Assembly (NCBI RefSeq): GCF_009914755.1
Contig: NC_060927.1
Direction: 5' to 3' (one strand)
DNA from: the human T2T-CHM13v2.0 reference genome, Homo sapiens
Length of the DNA stretch: 64,000 bases
In this document: piece after piece, positions 15,307-32,292 of the stretch
Layout of the letters: every line of letters begins with the position of its first letter
Position numbering within the stretch: the stretch's first letter is position 1
Translations under genes and position numbers: made by a program
The notes under the pieces: generated by a model
Told to the model about the DNA's origin: nothing
What the model saw: the letters and a program-made list of their open reading frames with translations, nothing else
Database searches by the model: none

Positions 15307-15504
15307 GTGGATGACCTCATAGAAACAGTGACTGATAAATCCATGAAGCTACTGGCCCAAAGACATGCTGAGCTTCAACAGTGTGAGTTTCTGGGGGATG
15401 AAATTCTTCAGTCTTCTAAACAGTTCCAGAGGATATCCAAGAGAACCATGAGGAAGTATAAATTAAAAAATGTGTGTTTCCCATGTACCTGCTGCTGCTT
15501 CTGA
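15307..15504 (+). CDS. C3orf49: C3orf49 coding exon 5, read-through form ending ...KYKLKNVCFPCTCCCF* (total 293 aa); R-SNARE-like coiled coil
   Basis: Acceptor tttatctgtcatag| at 15306; ORF 15307..15504; summed exons 882 nt = 293 aa + stop; internal donor AAT|GTGTGT after 15471 for the alternative form. Confidence 0.85.
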   Translation: MDDLIETVTDKSMKLLAQRHAELQQCEFLGDEILQSSKQFQRISKRTMRKYKLKNVCFPCTCCCF

Positions 15505-15539
15505 CTTTGTTCCTGATTCTTTAAAAGTTATCTTCCCTA

Positions 15540-15842
15540 GGCTGGCCGTGGTGGCTCACGCCTGTAATCTCAGCACTTTGGGAGGCCGAGCGAGTGGATC
15601 ACTTGATGTCTGGAGTTCAAAACCAGCCTGGCCAACATGGTGAAACCCTGTCTCTACTAAAAATACAAAAATTATCCAGGAGTGGTGGCGGGCGCCTCTA
15701 ATCCCAGCTACTCGGGAGGCTGAGGCAGGAGAATTGCTTGAACCTGGGAGGCAGAGGCTGCAGTGAGCCGAGATCGCACCACTGCACTCCAGCCTGGGCG
15801 ACAGCACAAGACTCCATCTCGAAAATAAAAAAATAAATAAAA
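15540..15842 (+). mobile_element. AluS in the C3orf49 short 3' UTR
   Basis: Full dimer; TSD-like aaaagtt(a/g)tcttcc flanks. Confidence 0.93.
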
Positions 15843-15884
15843 GTTGTCTTCCAAGAGATTCTTATCTTTTGGTACTTAATCCTG

Positions 15885-15890
15885 AATAAA
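15885..15890 (+). promoter_or_regulatory. Candidate poly(A) signal for the short C3orf49 form
   Basis: AATAAA ~380 nt after the TGA, just past an Alu inserted in the putative 3' UTR. Confidence 0.4.
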
Positions 15891-16003
15891 TCTCTCTAGT
15901 GAATTAATCAATGGGGGTGGGGATACGGAGGCAGCATTTTAAAAAAAATTCTACCCAATAGTCCTTTAAAAAATAAATATCTTTTTTGAAAAACTGGTAT
16001 TTG

Positions 16004-16310
16004 TCTGGGGCACAGTGGCTCACATCTATACTCCCAGCACTTTGGGAGGCTAACGTGGGTGGATCACGTGAACCCAGGAGTTTGAGACCAGCTTGGGCAA
16101 TATAGTGAGAATCTGTCACTACGAAAAATTTTTAAAAATTAGCTGAGTATGGCGATGTGTTGCCTGTAGTCCCAGCTACTCGGGAGGCTGACATAGAAGA
16201 ATTGCTTAAGCCTGGGAGGTCAAGGCTACAGTGAGCTGTGATCAAGCCACTGCACTCCAGCCTGGATGACAGGGCAAGACCCTGTCTCAGAAAAGAAAAA
16301 AAAAGAAAAA
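16004..16310 (+). mobile_element. AluJ
   Basis: Alu consensus. Confidence 0.9.
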
Positions 16311-16723
16311 TGGATTTTTAATTCTGAGTCAATATAGGCAAATTTTTGTTTCATAATTCTTACTAATAATGGAAAATAAAAACGATTGTCACAGCATAGC
16401 AATTCTGCAAAGAAATTTCTCCCATGACTTGCCAGATGAAATTAGAGGAAGCATTTATATGTATTATGACACTTTTAATATGACTACAACTGAGCTAATT
16501 TTAAACTTTCATTTTTAAAGATAAAAATTATTATTAAAATTACAAAAATGTAACATCATTAAGGTATGATTCATGCAAAGTGTCATGTTTCTGAACTAAA
16601 ATAAATGGATAAGGATGGAGCTGAACAAGTATTACACATATAATGAAATACTTAAGAAAATTACAAGTGATTCCGCCTTAGCTTAATTTTTAAAAAGATT
16701 ATAAATTCTTTATGCAAGACAAT

Positions 16724-28572: not shown

Positions 28573-28649
28573 AAGTGTTGCCCAAGTCTAGAATCATAAA
28601 TAAAGACAATTGAGATCTTTACATTTGTTGTAATTTTGTCTCTTGACAG

Positions 28650-28679
28650 ATGACCACAAAAGGACCTGGAGACAGCTGA
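28650..28679 (+). CDS. C3orf49: Alternative last coding exon of C3orf49 (MTTKGPGDS*), ERV-derived; gives a 292-aa isoform when spliced from 15471
   Basis: Acceptor aattttgtctcttgacag| at 28649; 283 + 9 codons = 292 aa, matching the length and ending I recall for annotated C3orf49; possible weak donor AAG|GTGATG after 28709. Confidence 0.7.
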   Translation: MTTKGPGDS

Positions 28680-30039
28680 CCTGAGACTCCTTGAGGAACA
28701 CAGGAAAAGGTGATGCTAACCTTCTTTTCTGGGGGTGGGGGGTACTATCTCCTTCATGTAGCCCTGAGGGTTAAGTCCCCCTCAGATCTGAGCTCTGCTC
28801 TCTTTAAGTATTTAAGCTCGCTGATATCTTTGGCTTTGGGGGTATCAAGATTAGTTTGTGCTATGAGAGGACATTTGACTTTGGGGTACCTAGGGTTAGT
28901 TTGTACTGTGGCAGGGCACATGACTTCTGGGTTCATAGTGGCTGACAAGTCACTGGCAATGACTACATTGTTTCGGCTCCCACTCTGGTGATATCTCATG
29001 CATGATGCCATAAAAGGCTTGGGTCAAGCCCTGAAGAATGTGGCTGGACAGAAATACGGGTTGCATCCCATTGGTGACCAGCATATGACCAGAGGGAAAT
29101 GTGCGTTACACTCTCTGTGGCTACCATAAAGGGCTGCAGTAGTAAAGGTAACCAACGGCAGTCACAGTAAGTGGTTATTACCATGAGGTGGAGGGGGACA
29201 TGAACTCTGGCTTTTGGAATTCATAGGTATGTGTGTTCTTTTTTTCTTACATGTTTAGATGAGGGAGGCCTCAGGCATCTGACTGGGTCAGACAAAAAAG
29301 AAACTGAAATGTCATTAGCTAAGTTGGTCAAGGCGATCTCAAAGCCAAAGCCATTTTGGCTTTGGAAGACCCAATATCCAACATAAAATGGTTTCTTTAA
29401 TTTCTAAAGATCTGAGTACCCTCCCTTCTGGCCAGTCTGCCTTTTTTGTGTATAAGGTTTCTGGTTCTGGAAGCTACAAATATTTACAAATGGCAAAATC
29501 TTACAAAAGATAATTCAGAATTATGATGCCATTACATGGAATGTTCCACATGAAAAAGACTATTCATCTAAGAAGTGCACTCGAACCCCGAGCCTCCCAA
29601 ATTATGCAGAGAGAACAAAATTCTTATTGGCATTCAGAAGCCTCAAAGAGACAGTCCTCTAAAATCACCTTTTAAAAAGATTCACTGTAAAGAGCTAATG
29701 AAAAGCTGGAAATGGAAGATATTCCCTTACCAAGGATGGTAAAACTGATGTAACTCCTACTGCCTCTCTCTCTCTTTCTTTGCCTGAATATTTACAATCT
29801 ACTACTAAATATTCAGTCTGCTTTGTCTGAATTGCCTTTCTTCCCTGAAAAAAGCAGTTAAACAGTTTCCTTATAAGAGAATCGTCTGAAAAATCAGGAG
29901 ATAATCCCCAAGCGACTTGCACTCCCTGGACAAAAATGGACTTCAGGGCCACAGTTCAAGATTTTCCTAAACCTAGAGAAAAATTTCACAAGTTTTCTGA
30001 AGAATTCAGGGTCTTACTAGTAACTTATTATTTAAAAAT

Positions 30040-30337
30040 TTTTATTTTTTTTAGACGGAGTTTCACTCTTGTTGCCCAGGCTGGAGTGCAAGGGCGCAAT
30101 CTTGGCTCACCACAACCTTCGTCTCCTGGGTTCAAGCTATTCTCCTGCCTCAGCCTCCCAAGCAGCTGGGATTACAGGCACCCACCACCACGCCAGGCTA
30201 ATTTTTTTGTAGTTTTAGTAGAGACGTGGTTTTACCATGTTGGCCAGGCTGGTTCTCAAACTCCTGACCTCAGGTGATCCACCCACCTCGGCCTCCTAAA
30301 GTGCGGGAATTATAGGCATGAGCCACCGTGCTTGGCC
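30040..30337 (-). mobile_element. AluS within ERV gag relic
   Basis: Reverse Alu; cttact(a/g)gtaa TSD-like flanks. Confidence 0.9.
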
Positions 30338-31082
30338 TTACTGGTAATTTATAACCCCAGTATACTTGATCTGTACCAACTAGTATATGTGTTGGTGTAC
30401 TCTAGGGAGCCCCACATGGATGAAAGAGGCAGAATGATAGTCTCCTGAGAATTCTATCAAGTACCCAACAAGTCCCGTCCGATCTACTTATGGGTCAGGC
30501 AAAACCCAAAAGACTGCAAATTACAGTTTGAAAAGCCATTCCCCAAGTATTTCAGCTCCATGACAACCAGCAACCTAGAATGACATTTGGGCCTGTCCTA
30601 GGGTGCTTCCCCAAATAAGCAATCCCTAAAACAGCAGTTTCCAAAAATTCACTAGTAGGAGGGCTAGAACGCCTCCTAGTTTGTTGGGAATGGATCGAAG
30701 AATTGCGTAGGCGAATAGGAAGTACCACCACTTGTGCAAATAACCAGGACATTGGAAAAAGGACTGCTAAAAAAAATTTCTAGGAAAGCCCCTAAAATCA
30801 GGCTTCCCACCCACCCTGTGATAAAAAAAGTTCCTATAAATCTGGTATGTATTGGTATAAATGCTATCAGTCATAATTTTGGTTGAAAAATAACCAAATT
30901 TCCTTGTCAATTTCATCATTATTTTAATGAACTCTCATCAGGTTTTAACCATGGCCATTTTAAGTCATGTTGTCCACAGTTAATTGTTTTGGTTCTAATG
31001 CCTTTTATGAAAGCTTTCTGCAAGCAATTATAATCCTAAAGTGCTGTGTCTCCAAAAAGCTATATCAGAAGAATGAAAAGAA

Positions 31083-31385
31083 GGCCGGGTGCAGTGGCTC
31101 ACGCCTGTAATCCCAGCACTTTGGGAGGCAGAGGCGAGCGGATCACTTGAGGTTAGGAGTCGAGACCAGGCTGGCCAACAAGGCGAAACCCTGTTTCTAC
31201 CAAAAATACAAAAATTAGCCGGGTGTGGGGTTGCGTGCCTGTAATCCCAGCTACTCAGGAGGCTGAGGAAGGAGAATTGCTTGAACCCAGGAGGCAGAGG
31301 TTGCAGTGAGCCAAGATCGTGCAACTGCACTCCAGTCTGGGCAACAGAGTGAGACTCTGTCTCAAAAAACAAACAAAAAAAACAA
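31083..31385 (+). mobile_element. AluS
   Basis: Alu consensus. Confidence 0.92.
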
Positions 31386-31447
31386 ACTCTGACATAACTT
31401 TTAGTTTATACCATTGGACAAAATTTCCAAAAGTTTAATGAAGAAAC

Positions 31448-32292
31448 TGTAAACCAAAAATAAAATTCTAAGCCCTCCAGCCAATTGAATGGACACCCAT
31501 TCAATAGGCCAAGGGCTTTCCAAAGTAAACCTGAAAAACTAGTTTAGGCCATGATGGGAATGGGGGTGGGGTCAGAATGCCTCATTACACCCTCCTTCTA
31601 GAATTCAGGCACAACTGACCAGCATGAACATTAAAACAGAGATCTTAAGACTGACCAAACAGACTCTTTGTACCAATAAGATACATCACATGACAGCAGA
31701 CATTGAAATAAATTGAAGTATTTTACTCTGAAATATATTTCTTTGATGTATTTAAAAATGGCCCTGCAAAGTTGTCTCATAAATCTACATTCTGTGGAGA
31801 ATCCCCTTCCCTTTCCAGGTCTTTTCCTGATCCAGGAGAGATTAAGAGTCTGGCACCTTTTTAAGTCTGATAAGAAATATTTACCATCTATTCTCTGTGA
31901 AGCCTGCTAGCTGGAGGTTTCATCTGTGTCAGAACCTTGGCCTCCACAACCCCTTATTTCAACCCAGAAATTCCTTTCTATTGATTCCAGGTCTTCAGAC
32001 AATAACTTAACCAATTACCAATCAGAAAATCGACTCCACCTATGAGCTGGAAGTCCTTCCCACCCCCCACCTTCAAGCTGTCCTGCTTTTCTGTACTGAA
32101 CCAATATACATCTTACGTGTATTCATTGATGTCTGCCTGTAACTTCTGTCCCCCTAAAATGCATAAAATCAGCTGTAATTCAACCACCTTCGGCACATCT
32201 CAGGACCTCCTGATGCTGTGGCATGTCTTTAACCTTGGCAAAATAAACTCCTAAATTGATTAAGACTTGTCTCAGATACTTTTTGGTTGACA
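31448..32292 (+). mobile_element. MER4-type solo LTR inserted in the ERV internal region
   Basis: TGTAAACCAAAAATAAAATTCTAAGCCC start and TTTTGGTTGACA end; AATAAA at 32242. Confidence 0.8.
31991..32270 (+). other. C3orf49: Probable non-coding terminal exon of the long C3orf49 isoform inside a MER4-type LTR
   Basis: Acceptor ttcctttctattgattccag| at 31990 and LTR AATAAA at 32242-32247; linkage to upstream exons is inferred. Confidence 0.45.

What the first reader, a model, noticed from the sequence alone, without database searches (positions are those of the whole stretch)
15471..32270. ERV-donated exon swaps out exactly the Cys-rich membrane anchor of C3orf49
Seen: a donor AAT|GTGTGT sits right after ...YKLKN (15471). 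An acceptor at the ERV U5/internal junction (tcttgacag|, 28649) opens ATG ACC ACA AAA GGA CCT GGA GAC AGC TGA in phase 0. That yields a 292-aa protein ending MTTKGPGDS instead of VCFPCTCCCF. The stop lies only 30 nt before the next plausible donor (28709), so it would escape the 50-nt NMD rule. A second LTR supplies an acceptor (31990) and AATAAA (32242). Inference: retroviral exonisation creates a soluble, anchor-less form that could act as a dominant-negative SNARE. If this is the reference isoform, as I recall, the ancestral lipid-anchor motif would be hidden from annotation.
Basis: partly seen in the sequence, partly recalled or inferred. Interest (0 to 1): 0.72.

Follow-up and report, generated by a model that had tools for sequence, protein, structure and literature searches.

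The report
LTR exons replace conserved cysteine tail
In human C3orf49, a barely studied SNARE-like gene, the selected reference transcript ends in two exons taken from old retroviral LTR elements and so loses a cysteine-rich tail that almost all other vertebrates keep; the event is real and already annotated, but what the tail-less protein does is unknown.

Summary
They match the RefSeq-selected transcript.

The LTR origin also holds, with corrections. Exon 6 starts one base after the end of a 76-nt 5' LTR remnant of a provirus-like element (28573-35519). Exon 7 is the last 273 nt of a different, nested 845-bp solo LTR (31448-32292), which supplies its own AATAAA. No retroviral protein domain survives.

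The replaced tail, VCFPCTCCCF, is ancestral: 116 of 120 listed orthologues, from sturgeon to human, carry it.

The helix before it resembles an R-SNARE only weakly. Pfam Synaptobrevin matches 53 of 67 orthologues at E<=0.01, but only 1 of the 9 tabulated individually passes the cut-off. Every alignment needs a one-residue insertion beside the zero-layer Arg.

The tail is not fully hidden: a read-through transcript and a human protein model with the tail exist.

The dominant-negative role is untested. No expression data and no other primate genomes could be consulted.

Verdict: a real, already annotated case of a known kind of event. Its practical point is that the reference isoform lacks the conserved tail.

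The parts
14737..14850 (+). C3orf49 coding exon 5: N-terminal half of the SNARE-like helix
   Evidence: Hub table. The Pfam Synaptobrevin match of the orthologues starts at residue 222 of 293, which lies in this exon. AF2 helix 202-283.
15307..15471 (+). Shared part of the ancestral last coding exon: C-terminal half of the helix, ending ...RKYKLKN
   Evidence: This exon alone matches PF00957 at E=0.003, 17.8 bits, profile positions 16-66 of 89.
15469..15477 (+). Internal 5' splice site AAT|GTGTGT, formed by the codons Asn-Val-Cys
   Evidence: It differs from the consensus MAG|GTRAGT at positions -1 and +4.
15472..15504 (+). Codons for the Cys-rich tail VCFPCTCCCF plus TGA; intronic in the selected transcript
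   Evidence: The tail is present in 116 of 120 orthologues.
15505..15890 (+). 3' UTR of the read-through form: sense Alu 15538-15849 with AATAAA hexamers in its A-tail (15824, 15832, 15836), then AATAAA at 15885-15890
   Evidence: The hub table gives the masked stretch 15538-15849 and the other-transcript exon 15307-15885.
28144..28572 (+). Separate dispersed LTR-like repeat abutting the provirus; not part of any exon
   Evidence: 2676 first-look candidates in the genome. Many of the 40 scored matches end at 28515, others at about 28572. I recall a resemblance to MaLR LTRs; this was not tested.
28573..28648 (+). Last 76 nt of the 5' LTR of provirus-like element E (AATAAA at 28599-28604; ends ...TTGACA)
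   Evidence: Matches the ends of both LTRs of the chr4 copy L020. The 3'-LTR match stops at 28646, while the 5'-LTR-plus-internal match runs on to 28873. 40 of 47 bases are identical to 35466-35512.
28650..28709 (+). Exon 6 (CDS 28650-28679: MTTKGPGDS, stop). It lies in the first 60 nt of E's internal region, where a primer-binding site would sit
   Evidence: The acceptor AG is the last base of the LTR plus the next base. Sister copies read TGG... four bases after the LTR end.
28573..35519 (+). Provirus-like element E, colinear with a chr4 copy bounded by two LTRs; interrupted by Alus and the nested LTR; no recognisable gag, pol or env
   Evidence: 11 colinear blocks against L020 2433-9175. 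(0 of 22 and 0 of 18 ORF pieces match a retroviral Pfam family).
31448..32292 (+). Nested 845-bp solo LTR in sense orientation (TG...CA)
   Evidence: 4277 first-look candidates. 7 of 7 fetched copies share both ends. 4-bp target duplications in 3 of 7 copies, AATAAA in 7 of 7. E's internal sequence resumes at 32297.
31991..32263 (+). Exon 7, the terminal non-coding exon: the 3' part of the nested LTR, with its AATAAA at 32242-32247
   Evidence: An AG at the acceptor position is present in 6 of 7 sister copies.
35008..35515 (+). 3' LTR of element E (starts TG; TATA-like tatataaa near 35405; AATAAA at 35490-35495; last ~30 nt missing)

Best explanation
C3orf49 is a vertebrate-wide gene. Its conserved product is a mostly disordered, basic protein ending in one long R-SNARE-like helix, followed directly by a 10-residue Cys-rich tail. 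I infer the tail to be a lipid (palmitoyl) anchor that stands where brevins have a transmembrane helix.

In human, the 3' end is decided by a race between two events.
1. Cleavage and polyadenylation shortly after the tail's stop codon (about 15.9 kb). This gives the ancestral tailed protein.
2. Splicing from a donor made by the codons Asn-Val-Cys (15471/2). This needs transcription to run on for 13 kb, antisense through the 3' half of THOC7.

In the second case the donor joins a 60-nt exon that starts exactly at the 5'-LTR/internal border of an old provirus-like element. That exon joins the last 273 nt of a younger solo LTR nested in the provirus, and the LTR's own AATAAA ends the mRNA. The resulting protein keeps the whole helix but carries MTTKGPGDS instead of the tail. 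Its stop lies 30 nt before the last junction, so NMD should spare it.

Shown: the anatomy, the LTR origin, and that the tail is ancestral.
Inferred: a primate age for the insertions; that the tailed form is still the conserved functional product; that the tail-less form is not membrane-bound.
Open: whether the tail-less form regulates anything or is a tolerated by-product. I lean towards by-product or an unanchored form of uncertain use.
For: - Splice sites, frames and distances: equal to the hub's NM_001355236.2.
- Tail: 116 of 120 listed orthologues have 3-7 Cys in the 12 residues after the KLKN-type motif. The human tail is the commonest form, 37 of 120.
- The human C-terminal 93 residues are 91/93 identical to bear, lemur and capuchin, and 65/92 to sturgeon.
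- Anthropoid models keep the tail: Pongo, Hylobates, Papio, Sapajus, Aotus.
- SNARE-like helix: PF00957 is the only recurrent family (53 of 67 orthologues at E<=0.01; 9 of 9 at E<=0.009). All 4 PDB profile hits at E<=1 are VAMP8 or VAMP2 SNARE motifs, with the nearly invariant R247 on their zero-layer Arg.
- AF2 gives a helix 202-283 with pLDDT above 90 for about residues 221-280. It ends at the residue where the donor cuts.
- LTR origin.
- Age: K2P distance of the nested LTR to 7 copies is 0.15-0.22. For element E it is about 0.25 to 3 copies.
- A preprint expressed UniProt Q96BT1 in cells and saw it in nucleoli, not on membranes (passages and one supplement row read).
Against: - No expression, junction-read or 3'-end data could be consulted, so isoform shares are unknown. 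RefSeq's choice of the LTR form as the selected transcript suggests it is well supported in human.
- SNARE similarity is sub-threshold. Only 1 of the 9 orthologues tabulated individually passes Pfam's cut-off. The exon is not among the 25 matches at E<=1 in a whole-genome PF00957 scan. hhalign against a VAMP5 profile gives probability 6.5%, E 0.0056. The Atlas score of 0.84 is below its 0.9 lead level.
- Every alignment needs a one-residue insertion just before the zero-layer Arg.
- Lipidation of the tail is inferred only.
- Element E has no detectable retroviral gene (0 of 40 ORF pieces).
- The window copy of the nested LTR lacks a clean target duplication (AAAC against AATT).
- I could not see which isoform the preprint's construct encoded.
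Confidence: 0.7

Rival explanations
1. The LTR-terminated isoform is the main human product. It acts as a soluble, anchor-less R-SNARE that competes with membrane-bound SNAREs, as a dominant-negative inhibitor in the manner of tomosyn or amisyn.
For: - It is the RefSeq-selected transcript (hub table).
- It keeps the entire helix and should escape NMD.
- The same junction after ...KLKN is used by predicted isoforms of three seal species with a different downstream exon. Mirounga P0012 and P0114 are identical for 284 residues and then diverge. Tail-less forms therefore arise repeatedly.
Against: - SNARE membership is itself unproven. The one-residue insertion at the zero layer may prevent a canonical four-helix bundle.
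- The 9 new residues come from decayed non-coding provirus sequence shaped by small deletions.
- The tail codons stay intact in human and five other anthropoid models.
- Expressed Q96BT1 went to nucleoli, not to sites of membrane fusion.
Confidence: 0.12
2. The LTR-terminated transcript is a by-product of read-through past a leaky poly(A) site plus LTR-borne splice and poly(A) signals. It became the reference through cDNA availability. Its protein has no selected function and is mislocalised.
For: - The acceptor AG and the AATAAA are family features of the nested LTR (6 of 7 and 7 of 7 copies), so any read-through transcript would meet ready-made signals.
- The new peptide is short and comes from non-coding sequence.
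- Nucleolar localisation fits a very basic protein (58 K+R against 27 D+E) that has lost its anchor.
Against: - No expression data were seen.
- The stop lying 30 nt from the junction and the in-phase entry could be chance or selection; I cannot tell which.
- Seals use the same donor, which hints at some regularity.
Confidence: 0.4
3. C3orf49 is not a SNARE relative at all. The helix is a generic coiled coil, and the Cys cluster binds metal or forms disulfides rather than anchoring to lipid, so 'anchor swap' is the wrong frame.
For: - Scores are below the curated cut-off in 8 of the 9 orthologues tabulated individually.
- The exon is absent from the genome-wide PF00957 hit list.
- hhalign probability is 6.5%.
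- The heptad register is broken.
- There is no longin or other SNARE-associated domain; the N-terminus is disordered.
Against: - Four methods give the same colinear alignment over about 60 residues, ending at the KY..KN motif that precedes the membrane anchor in VAMPs (as a lead only).
- No other family recurs: TORC_M matches 1 of 67.
- Some database sources name orthologues 'V-SNARE coiled-coil homology domain-containing protein' (P0051, P0112).
Confidence: 0.25

Closest known systems
Brevin-type R-SNAREs (VAMP2, VAMP8; Pfam PF00957 Synaptobrevin)
   Same: A helix of about 60 residues aligns colinearly. An Arg falls on the zero layer. Small residues fall at the positions I recall as layers +3, +5 and +7. 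A KY..KN motif sits directly before the C-terminal anchor position.
   Different: Scores are mostly below the curated cut-off. There is a one-residue insertion before the zero-layer Arg. A 10-residue Cys cluster replaces the transmembrane helix. A roughly 200-residue disordered basic N-terminus precedes the helix.
Lipid-anchored SNAREs: Ykt6, syntaxin-11/-19, SNAP-25 (recalled, no call)
   Same: A SNARE helix attached to membranes through acylated or prenylated cysteines instead of a transmembrane segment. This is the model I infer for the tailed form.
   Different: No lipidation of C3orf49 has been shown. The tail's last four residues are not a conserved CaaX box; variants such as ...CTWCCF and ...CAWCC occur.
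Tomosyn and amisyn: soluble R-SNARE-like inhibitors (recalled, no call)
   Same: An R-SNARE-type helix without a membrane anchor, which is what the LTR-terminated isoform would be.
   Different: Those are separate genes with other domains. Here the anchor-less form arises by alternative 3' exons, and no inhibitory activity is known.
LTR-derived alternative terminal exons and poly(A) sites in human genes (a known class; examples such as the HERV-H LTR-associating genes are recalled, no call)
   Same: A sense-oriented LTR gives a splice acceptor and its own AATAAA to a host transcript.
   Different: Two unrelated LTR elements, one nested in the other, each give one exon. The first exon begins exactly at the LTR/internal border. 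The swap removes a deeply conserved C-terminal motif from the isoform chosen as reference.

Membership tests
R-SNARE / Synaptobrevin (PF00957) | Score at or above Pfam's gathering cut-off (26.4 bits) | tested here: inconclusive
   1 of 9 orthologues passes (Tenrec, 27.6 bits). The other 8 score 16.3-23.1 bits. 53 of 67 match at E<=0.01. The human exon alone scores 17.8 bits and is not among the 25 genome-wide matches at E<=1.
R-SNARE / Synaptobrevin (PF00957) | Arginine at the central (zero) layer | tested here: met
   R247 is present in 90% or more of 67 orthologues. It aligns with the Arg of VAMP8 and VAMP2 and of VAMP5. That this Arg is the zero layer is recalled.
R-SNARE / Synaptobrevin (PF00957) | Uninterrupted heptad register across the motif | tested here: not met
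   All alignments place a one-residue insertion (the invariant Q246) just before the Arg. The matched stretch is one residue longer than the profile stretch in 9 of 9 orthologues. The gap is visible.
R-SNARE / Synaptobrevin (PF00957) | C-terminal transmembrane anchor directly after the motif | tested here: not met
   The match ends at profile position 66 of 89. Only 10 residues follow, four to five of them Cys. A lipid anchor in its place cannot be tested with these tools.
R-SNARE / Synaptobrevin (PF00957) | Assembly into a four-helix SNARE complex | not testable with these tools
   No eukaryotic partner sequences are offered for the complex tool, so no job was sent.
LTR retroelement / endogenous retrovirus (element E, 28573-35519) | Two LTRs flanking an internal region | tested here: met
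   The chr4 copy L020 has matching LTRs at about 2433-2929 and about 8785-9177. The window is colinear with it, with a 76-nt 5' remnant and a 3' LTR at 35008-35515.
LTR retroelement / endogenous retrovirus (element E, 28573-35519) | Primer-binding site just inside the 5' LTR | tested here: inconclusive
   2 of 3 sister copies read TGG... four bases after the LTR end. The window copy is shortened by small deletions. I recall complementarity to a tRNA-Arg 3' end but did not test it.
LTR retroelement / endogenous retrovirus (element E, 28573-35519) | gag, pol or env coding remnants | tested here: not met
   0 of 22 window ORF pieces and 0 of 18 ORF pieces of L020 match a retroviral Pfam family at E<=1. 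Short decayed pieces give low sensitivity.
Solo LTR (31448-32292) | Discrete shared ends, TG...CA termini, short target-site duplication | tested here: met
   7 of 7 copies share both ends. The window copy runs TGTAAACC...TTGACA. 4-bp duplications are seen in 3 of 7 copies (GTCT, ATAT, CATG). The window copy's flanks (AAAC and AATT) do not match.
Solo LTR (31448-32292) | Own polyadenylation signal near the 3' end, in sense with the host gene | tested here: met
   AATAAA is present in 7 of 7 copies at the aligned place. In the window it lies at 32242-32247, 16 nt before the annotated mRNA end.
NMD-exempt stop (50-55-nt rule) | Stop less than about 50 nt upstream of the last exon junction | tested here: met
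   The stop ends at 28679 and the junction is at 28709, a distance of 30 nt. The rule itself is established knowledge. Actual stability was not tested.

The most novel reading that the evidence does not exclude
C3orf49 is an unrecognised vertebrate R-SNARE-like protein held on membranes by a palmitoylated Cys tail. The splice donor hidden in its Asn-Val-Cys codons is a built-in switch. Different mammals (primates through two nested LTR elements, seals through another exon) have independently used it to make a soluble, tomosyn-like competitor. On this reading the human reference isoform is the regulator, not the effector.
Probability: 0.1. Interest if true: 0.7.

Novelty: new member of a known kind. 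Interest (0 to 1): 0.42.

Why it matters
Capture of LTR splice and poly(A) signals by host genes is well known, and both transcripts are already in RefSeq. The event itself is therefore not new.

What is useful is the consequence. For an uncharacterised gene conserved from sturgeon to human, the isoform chosen as the human reference lacks the most conserved C-terminal motif and ends in nine residues of decayed provirus. Work that starts from the reference sequence may study a protein without its probable membrane anchor. One preprint expressed Q96BT1 and found it in nucleoli.

In the searched library, 19 papers mention C3orf49. None also mentions SNARE. None concerns the mouse name Gm11100: the 2 hits are unrelated papers from the 1960s. 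The SNARE-like reading with a Cys tail therefore appears only in automatic database names.

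Tried and rejected
- Retroviral genes: Pfam found none in 22 ORF pieces of the window copy or in 18 of the chr4 copy. I call element E 'provirus-like', not a proven ERV.
- The idea that the LTR at 31448-32292 is the partner of the LTR remnant before exon 6 was rejected. The 27600-29200 query, which holds the remnant, found nothing in 31448-32292. The true partner is 35008-35515.
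- My first guess was that exon 6 lies in the internal part of the LTR-like repeat at 28144-28515. This was rejected: sister copies carry a different LTR upstream of the exon 6 homologue.
- A whole-genome PF00957 scan does not recover the C3orf49 exon.
- hhalign against a VAMP5-only profile gave probability 6.5%.
- The Atlas gave scores of only 0.84-0.86.
- The assignment of the primer-binding site to a tRNA was left untested, because I had no tool-given tRNA sequence to compare.
- Repeat family names could not be obtained; no repeat library is on hand.
- The tail as a CaaX box was rejected, because the Cys at position -4 is not conserved.
- No complex prediction and no fold search were sent.

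Full report
**1. The observation**

- Donor AAT|gtgtgt at 15471/15472, right after ...YKLKN.
- Read-through codons VCFPCTCCCF, then TGA at 15502-15504.
- Acceptor ...ctcttgacag|ATG at 28649/28650.
- The frame ATG ACC ACA AAA GGA CCT GGA GAC AGC TGA at 28650-28679.
- Donor AAG|gtgatg at 28709/28710.
- Acceptor ...ccag|GTC at 31990/31991.
- AATAAA at 32242-32247.

Joining the annotated coding parts in a script gives 292 aa ending MTTKGPGDS. Reading through gives 293 aa ending VCFPCTCCCF. Neither has an internal stop. The exon 5/exon 6 junction is in phase 0. The stop ends 30 nt before the last junction. The coordinates are those of the RefSeq-selected NM_001355236.2 in the hub's table. That table also lists another transcript with exon 15307-15885, which keeps the tail.

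**2. Where the two terminal exons come from**

The stretch 31800-32300 is a high-copy repeat, with 4277 first-look candidates of which 40 were scored. In 7 of 7 fetched copies the homology has the same two ends, at window 31445-31456 and 32292-32297; one copy is split by an insertion.

The unit runs TGTAAACC...TTGACA and is about 845 bp. It has 4-bp target duplications in 3 of 7 copies. It carries AATAAA at the aligned place in 7 of 7 copies and an AG at the exon 7 acceptor position in 6 of 7. The window copy's own flanks (AAAC and AATT) do not match. I read it as a sense-oriented solo LTR whose family-borne acceptor and poly(A) signal make exon 7.

Exon 6 lies in another repeat. Three genomic copies align across it at 72-75% identity. 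The chr4 copy (L020) is bounded by two similar LTRs. It is colinear with the window in 11 blocks from 28573 to 35519. The colinearity skips the 845-bp LTR: L020 4810-4970 matches 30889-31055 and L020 5077-5423 matches 32297-32640.

The window therefore holds one provirus-like element, which I call E.
- Its 3' LTR is 35008-35515. It starts with TG and has a TATA-like box and AATAAA at 35490.
- Its 5' LTR is cut down to its last 76 nt (28573-28648, with AATAAA at 28599).
- The two remnants share 40 of 47 bases.
- L020's 3'-LTR match to the window stops at 28646, while its 5'-LTR-plus-internal match runs on. L020's 5' LTR ends ...CTGACA, followed four bases later by a TGG-initiated stretch.

The LTR/internal border is therefore at 28648/28649. 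The acceptor AG is the LTR's last base plus the next one, and exon 6 covers the place of a primer-binding site.

The 'second LTR' is not E's own. It is an unrelated LTR nested in E.

Relative to the sister copies, the window's exon 6 carries small deletions that shape the 10-codon frame. The acceptor AG is present in 2 of 3 copies and the donor GT in 1 of 3.

No retroviral protein family was found in 22 ORF pieces of the window copy or in 18 of L020. 'ERV' therefore rests on LTR architecture alone.

Upstream, 28144-28572 is a further, separate LTR-like repeat with 2676 candidates. It gives nothing to the mRNA.

**3. Age (inference)**

K2P distances of the nested LTR to 7 copies are 0.15-0.22, mean 0.18. 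For E's internal part they are about 0.25 to 3 copies. Halved and divided by a commonly used rate of about 2.2e-9 per site per year (recalled), this gives roughly 40 and 60 million years. That means insertions within primate history, with wide error. I could not inspect other primate genomes.

**4. What is swapped out**

A search with the last coding exon found 170 proteins at E<=0.01, of which the best 120 are listed. They are named C3orf49 homologues from placentals, marsupials, monotremes, frogs, sturgeon and paddlefish.
- 116 of the 120 have 3-7 cysteines in the 12 residues after the KLKN-type motif.
- The exact human tail is the commonest form, 37 of 120.
- In a 67-sequence alignment C285 and C291 are invariant, and F286, P287, C288 and C292 are nearly so.
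- The human C-terminal 93 residues are 91/93 identical to bear, lemur and capuchin, 84/93 to a dunnart and 65/92 to sturgeon. The N-terminal 200 residues fall to 49%.
- Pongo, Hylobates, Papio, Sapajus and Aotus models keep the tail. NCBI holds a human 'isoform X2' with it (P0005).

The tail is therefore ancestral, intact in human, and annotated, though not in the selected transcript.

Four of the 120 lack it. Three seal clusters end ...KLKN-IRILIKITKTNIV. In Mirounga the tailed and untailed models are identical for 284 residues and part exactly at this junction. One cat model diverges one residue later. The donor in the Asn-Val-Cys codons thus appears to be used outside primates, with other downstream exons.

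**5. Is it a SNARE?**

For:
- Pfam Synaptobrevin is the best hit in 8 of 9 orthologues tested and present in all 9 (E from 2.7e-6 to 8.7e-3). The match covers residues 222-284 against profile positions 5-66 of 89.
- Across the 67 aligned orthologues, 53 match at E<=0.01, and no other family matches more than one.
- A profile of the family finds only VAMP8 and VAMP2 SNARE motifs in the PDB (4 hits, E 0.045-0.98). The nearly invariant R247 falls on their central Arg, and the KY..KN motif is aligned.
- AlphaFold2 gives a confident helix 202-283 that ends where the donor cuts. The rest is mostly low-confidence (mean pLDDT 58).

Against:
- Only 1 of the 9 passes the curated cut-off.
- The human exon alone scores 17.8 bits. 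It is absent from the 25 matches at E<=1 in a whole-genome scan with the family.
- hhalign against a VAMP5 profile gives probability 6.5% and E 0.0056.
- The Atlas lists Synaptobrevin clusters at 0.84, below its lead level.
- All alignments insert one residue (the invariant Q246) just before the Arg. This breaks the heptad register at the centre of the motif.

I file it as R-SNARE-like, membership unproven. The profile positions that would form the transmembrane helix are replaced by the Cys tail. That the tail is a palmitoyl anchor is an inference by analogy with lipid-anchored SNAREs, which I recall. It is not a conserved CaaX box.

**6. How it most likely works**

The ancestral terminal exon now has two fates.
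- After the tail's stop come a sense Alu (15538-15849), whose A-tail holds three AATAAA hexamers, and then a further AATAAA at 15885-15890. Cleavage there yields the tailed protein.
- If the polymerase runs on, the donor at 15471 can pair with the provirus acceptor 13.2 kb away. The intron contains THOC7 exons 2-8 on the other strand (hub table), so the long form needs transcription antisense through THOC7.
- The nested LTR then ends the mRNA.

The donor departs from the consensus at positions -1 and +4 but keeps the G at +5.

The tail-less protein is very basic; the tailed form has 58 K+R against 27 D+E. A preprint that expressed UniProt Q96BT1 reports nucleolar localisation. I read three passages of the main text and one row of a supplementary table. 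I could not see which isoform the construct encoded.

I commit to this reading: the tailed form is the conserved effector, and the LTR form is a primate-age, NMD-exempt, unanchored variant. Whether it regulates anything is open. I put the dominant-negative reading at about 0.1.

**7. Novelty**

Capture of LTR splice and poly(A) signals is a known kind of event, and both transcripts are annotated. In the searched library, 19 papers mention C3orf49 (18 listed, none about its function by title or abstract start). None holds both C3orf49 and SNARE. Gm11100 gives only two unrelated old papers.

The specific points appear to be unpublished in that library:
- two nested LTR elements, with an exon starting at the LTR/internal border;
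- removal of a deeply conserved Cys tail from the reference isoform of a SNARE-like gene.

The practical value is a warning about which isoform to study.

Noticed in passing
window 15538-15849 and 15824-15890: A sense Alu sits in the 3' UTR of the read-through form, between the tail's stop and the AATAAA at 15885-15890. Its A-tail adds three more AATAAA hexamers. The annotated end of the other transcript (15885) falls on the first base of the last hexamer, so that end is unlikely to be a true cleavage site.
   Followed up: partly
window 15472-28649 (+) against THOC7 exons at 17497-23400 (-): The 13.2-kb intron of the selected C3orf49 transcript contains THOC7 exons 2-8 on the opposite strand. 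The two LTR exons lie in THOC7 intron 1. The long C3orf49 form and THOC7 are therefore convergent, overlapping transcripts.
   Followed up: no
P0113, P0114, P0116 (seals) and P0101 (cat): Predicted isoforms in three seal species leave the tail at exactly the same junction (after ...KLKN) for a different 13-residue end. A cat model diverges one residue later. These are gene models, and their support is unknown.
   Followed up: partly
L024 (G000:C17:47579257-47579505, +): An intronless VAMP5-like copy on contig 17 matches Synaptobrevin positions 3-85 of 89 in one open frame of 116 aa without stops. The database holds 108-111-aa proteins identical to the 83 translated residues, though no ATG-started ORF of 80 aa or more was listed on that strand. 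It is possibly a retrocopy.
   Followed up: no
P0115 (Polyodon spathula, 'CC049 protein'): The paddlefish model carries an S-100/EF-hand domain (E 4.3e-8) in front of the C3orf49-like part. This could be a real fusion or a merged gene model.
   Followed up: no
window 27660-28140: The stretch just upstream of the LTR-like repeat ends in an A-rich run. By recall it looks like the 3' end of a LINE-1. This was not tested.
   Followed up: no
PMC10350077, table in section 32: C3orf49 is listed among proteins changed in a proteomics data set of iPSC-derived cells, which is a hint of protein-level detection. Only that one passage was read.
   Followed up: no
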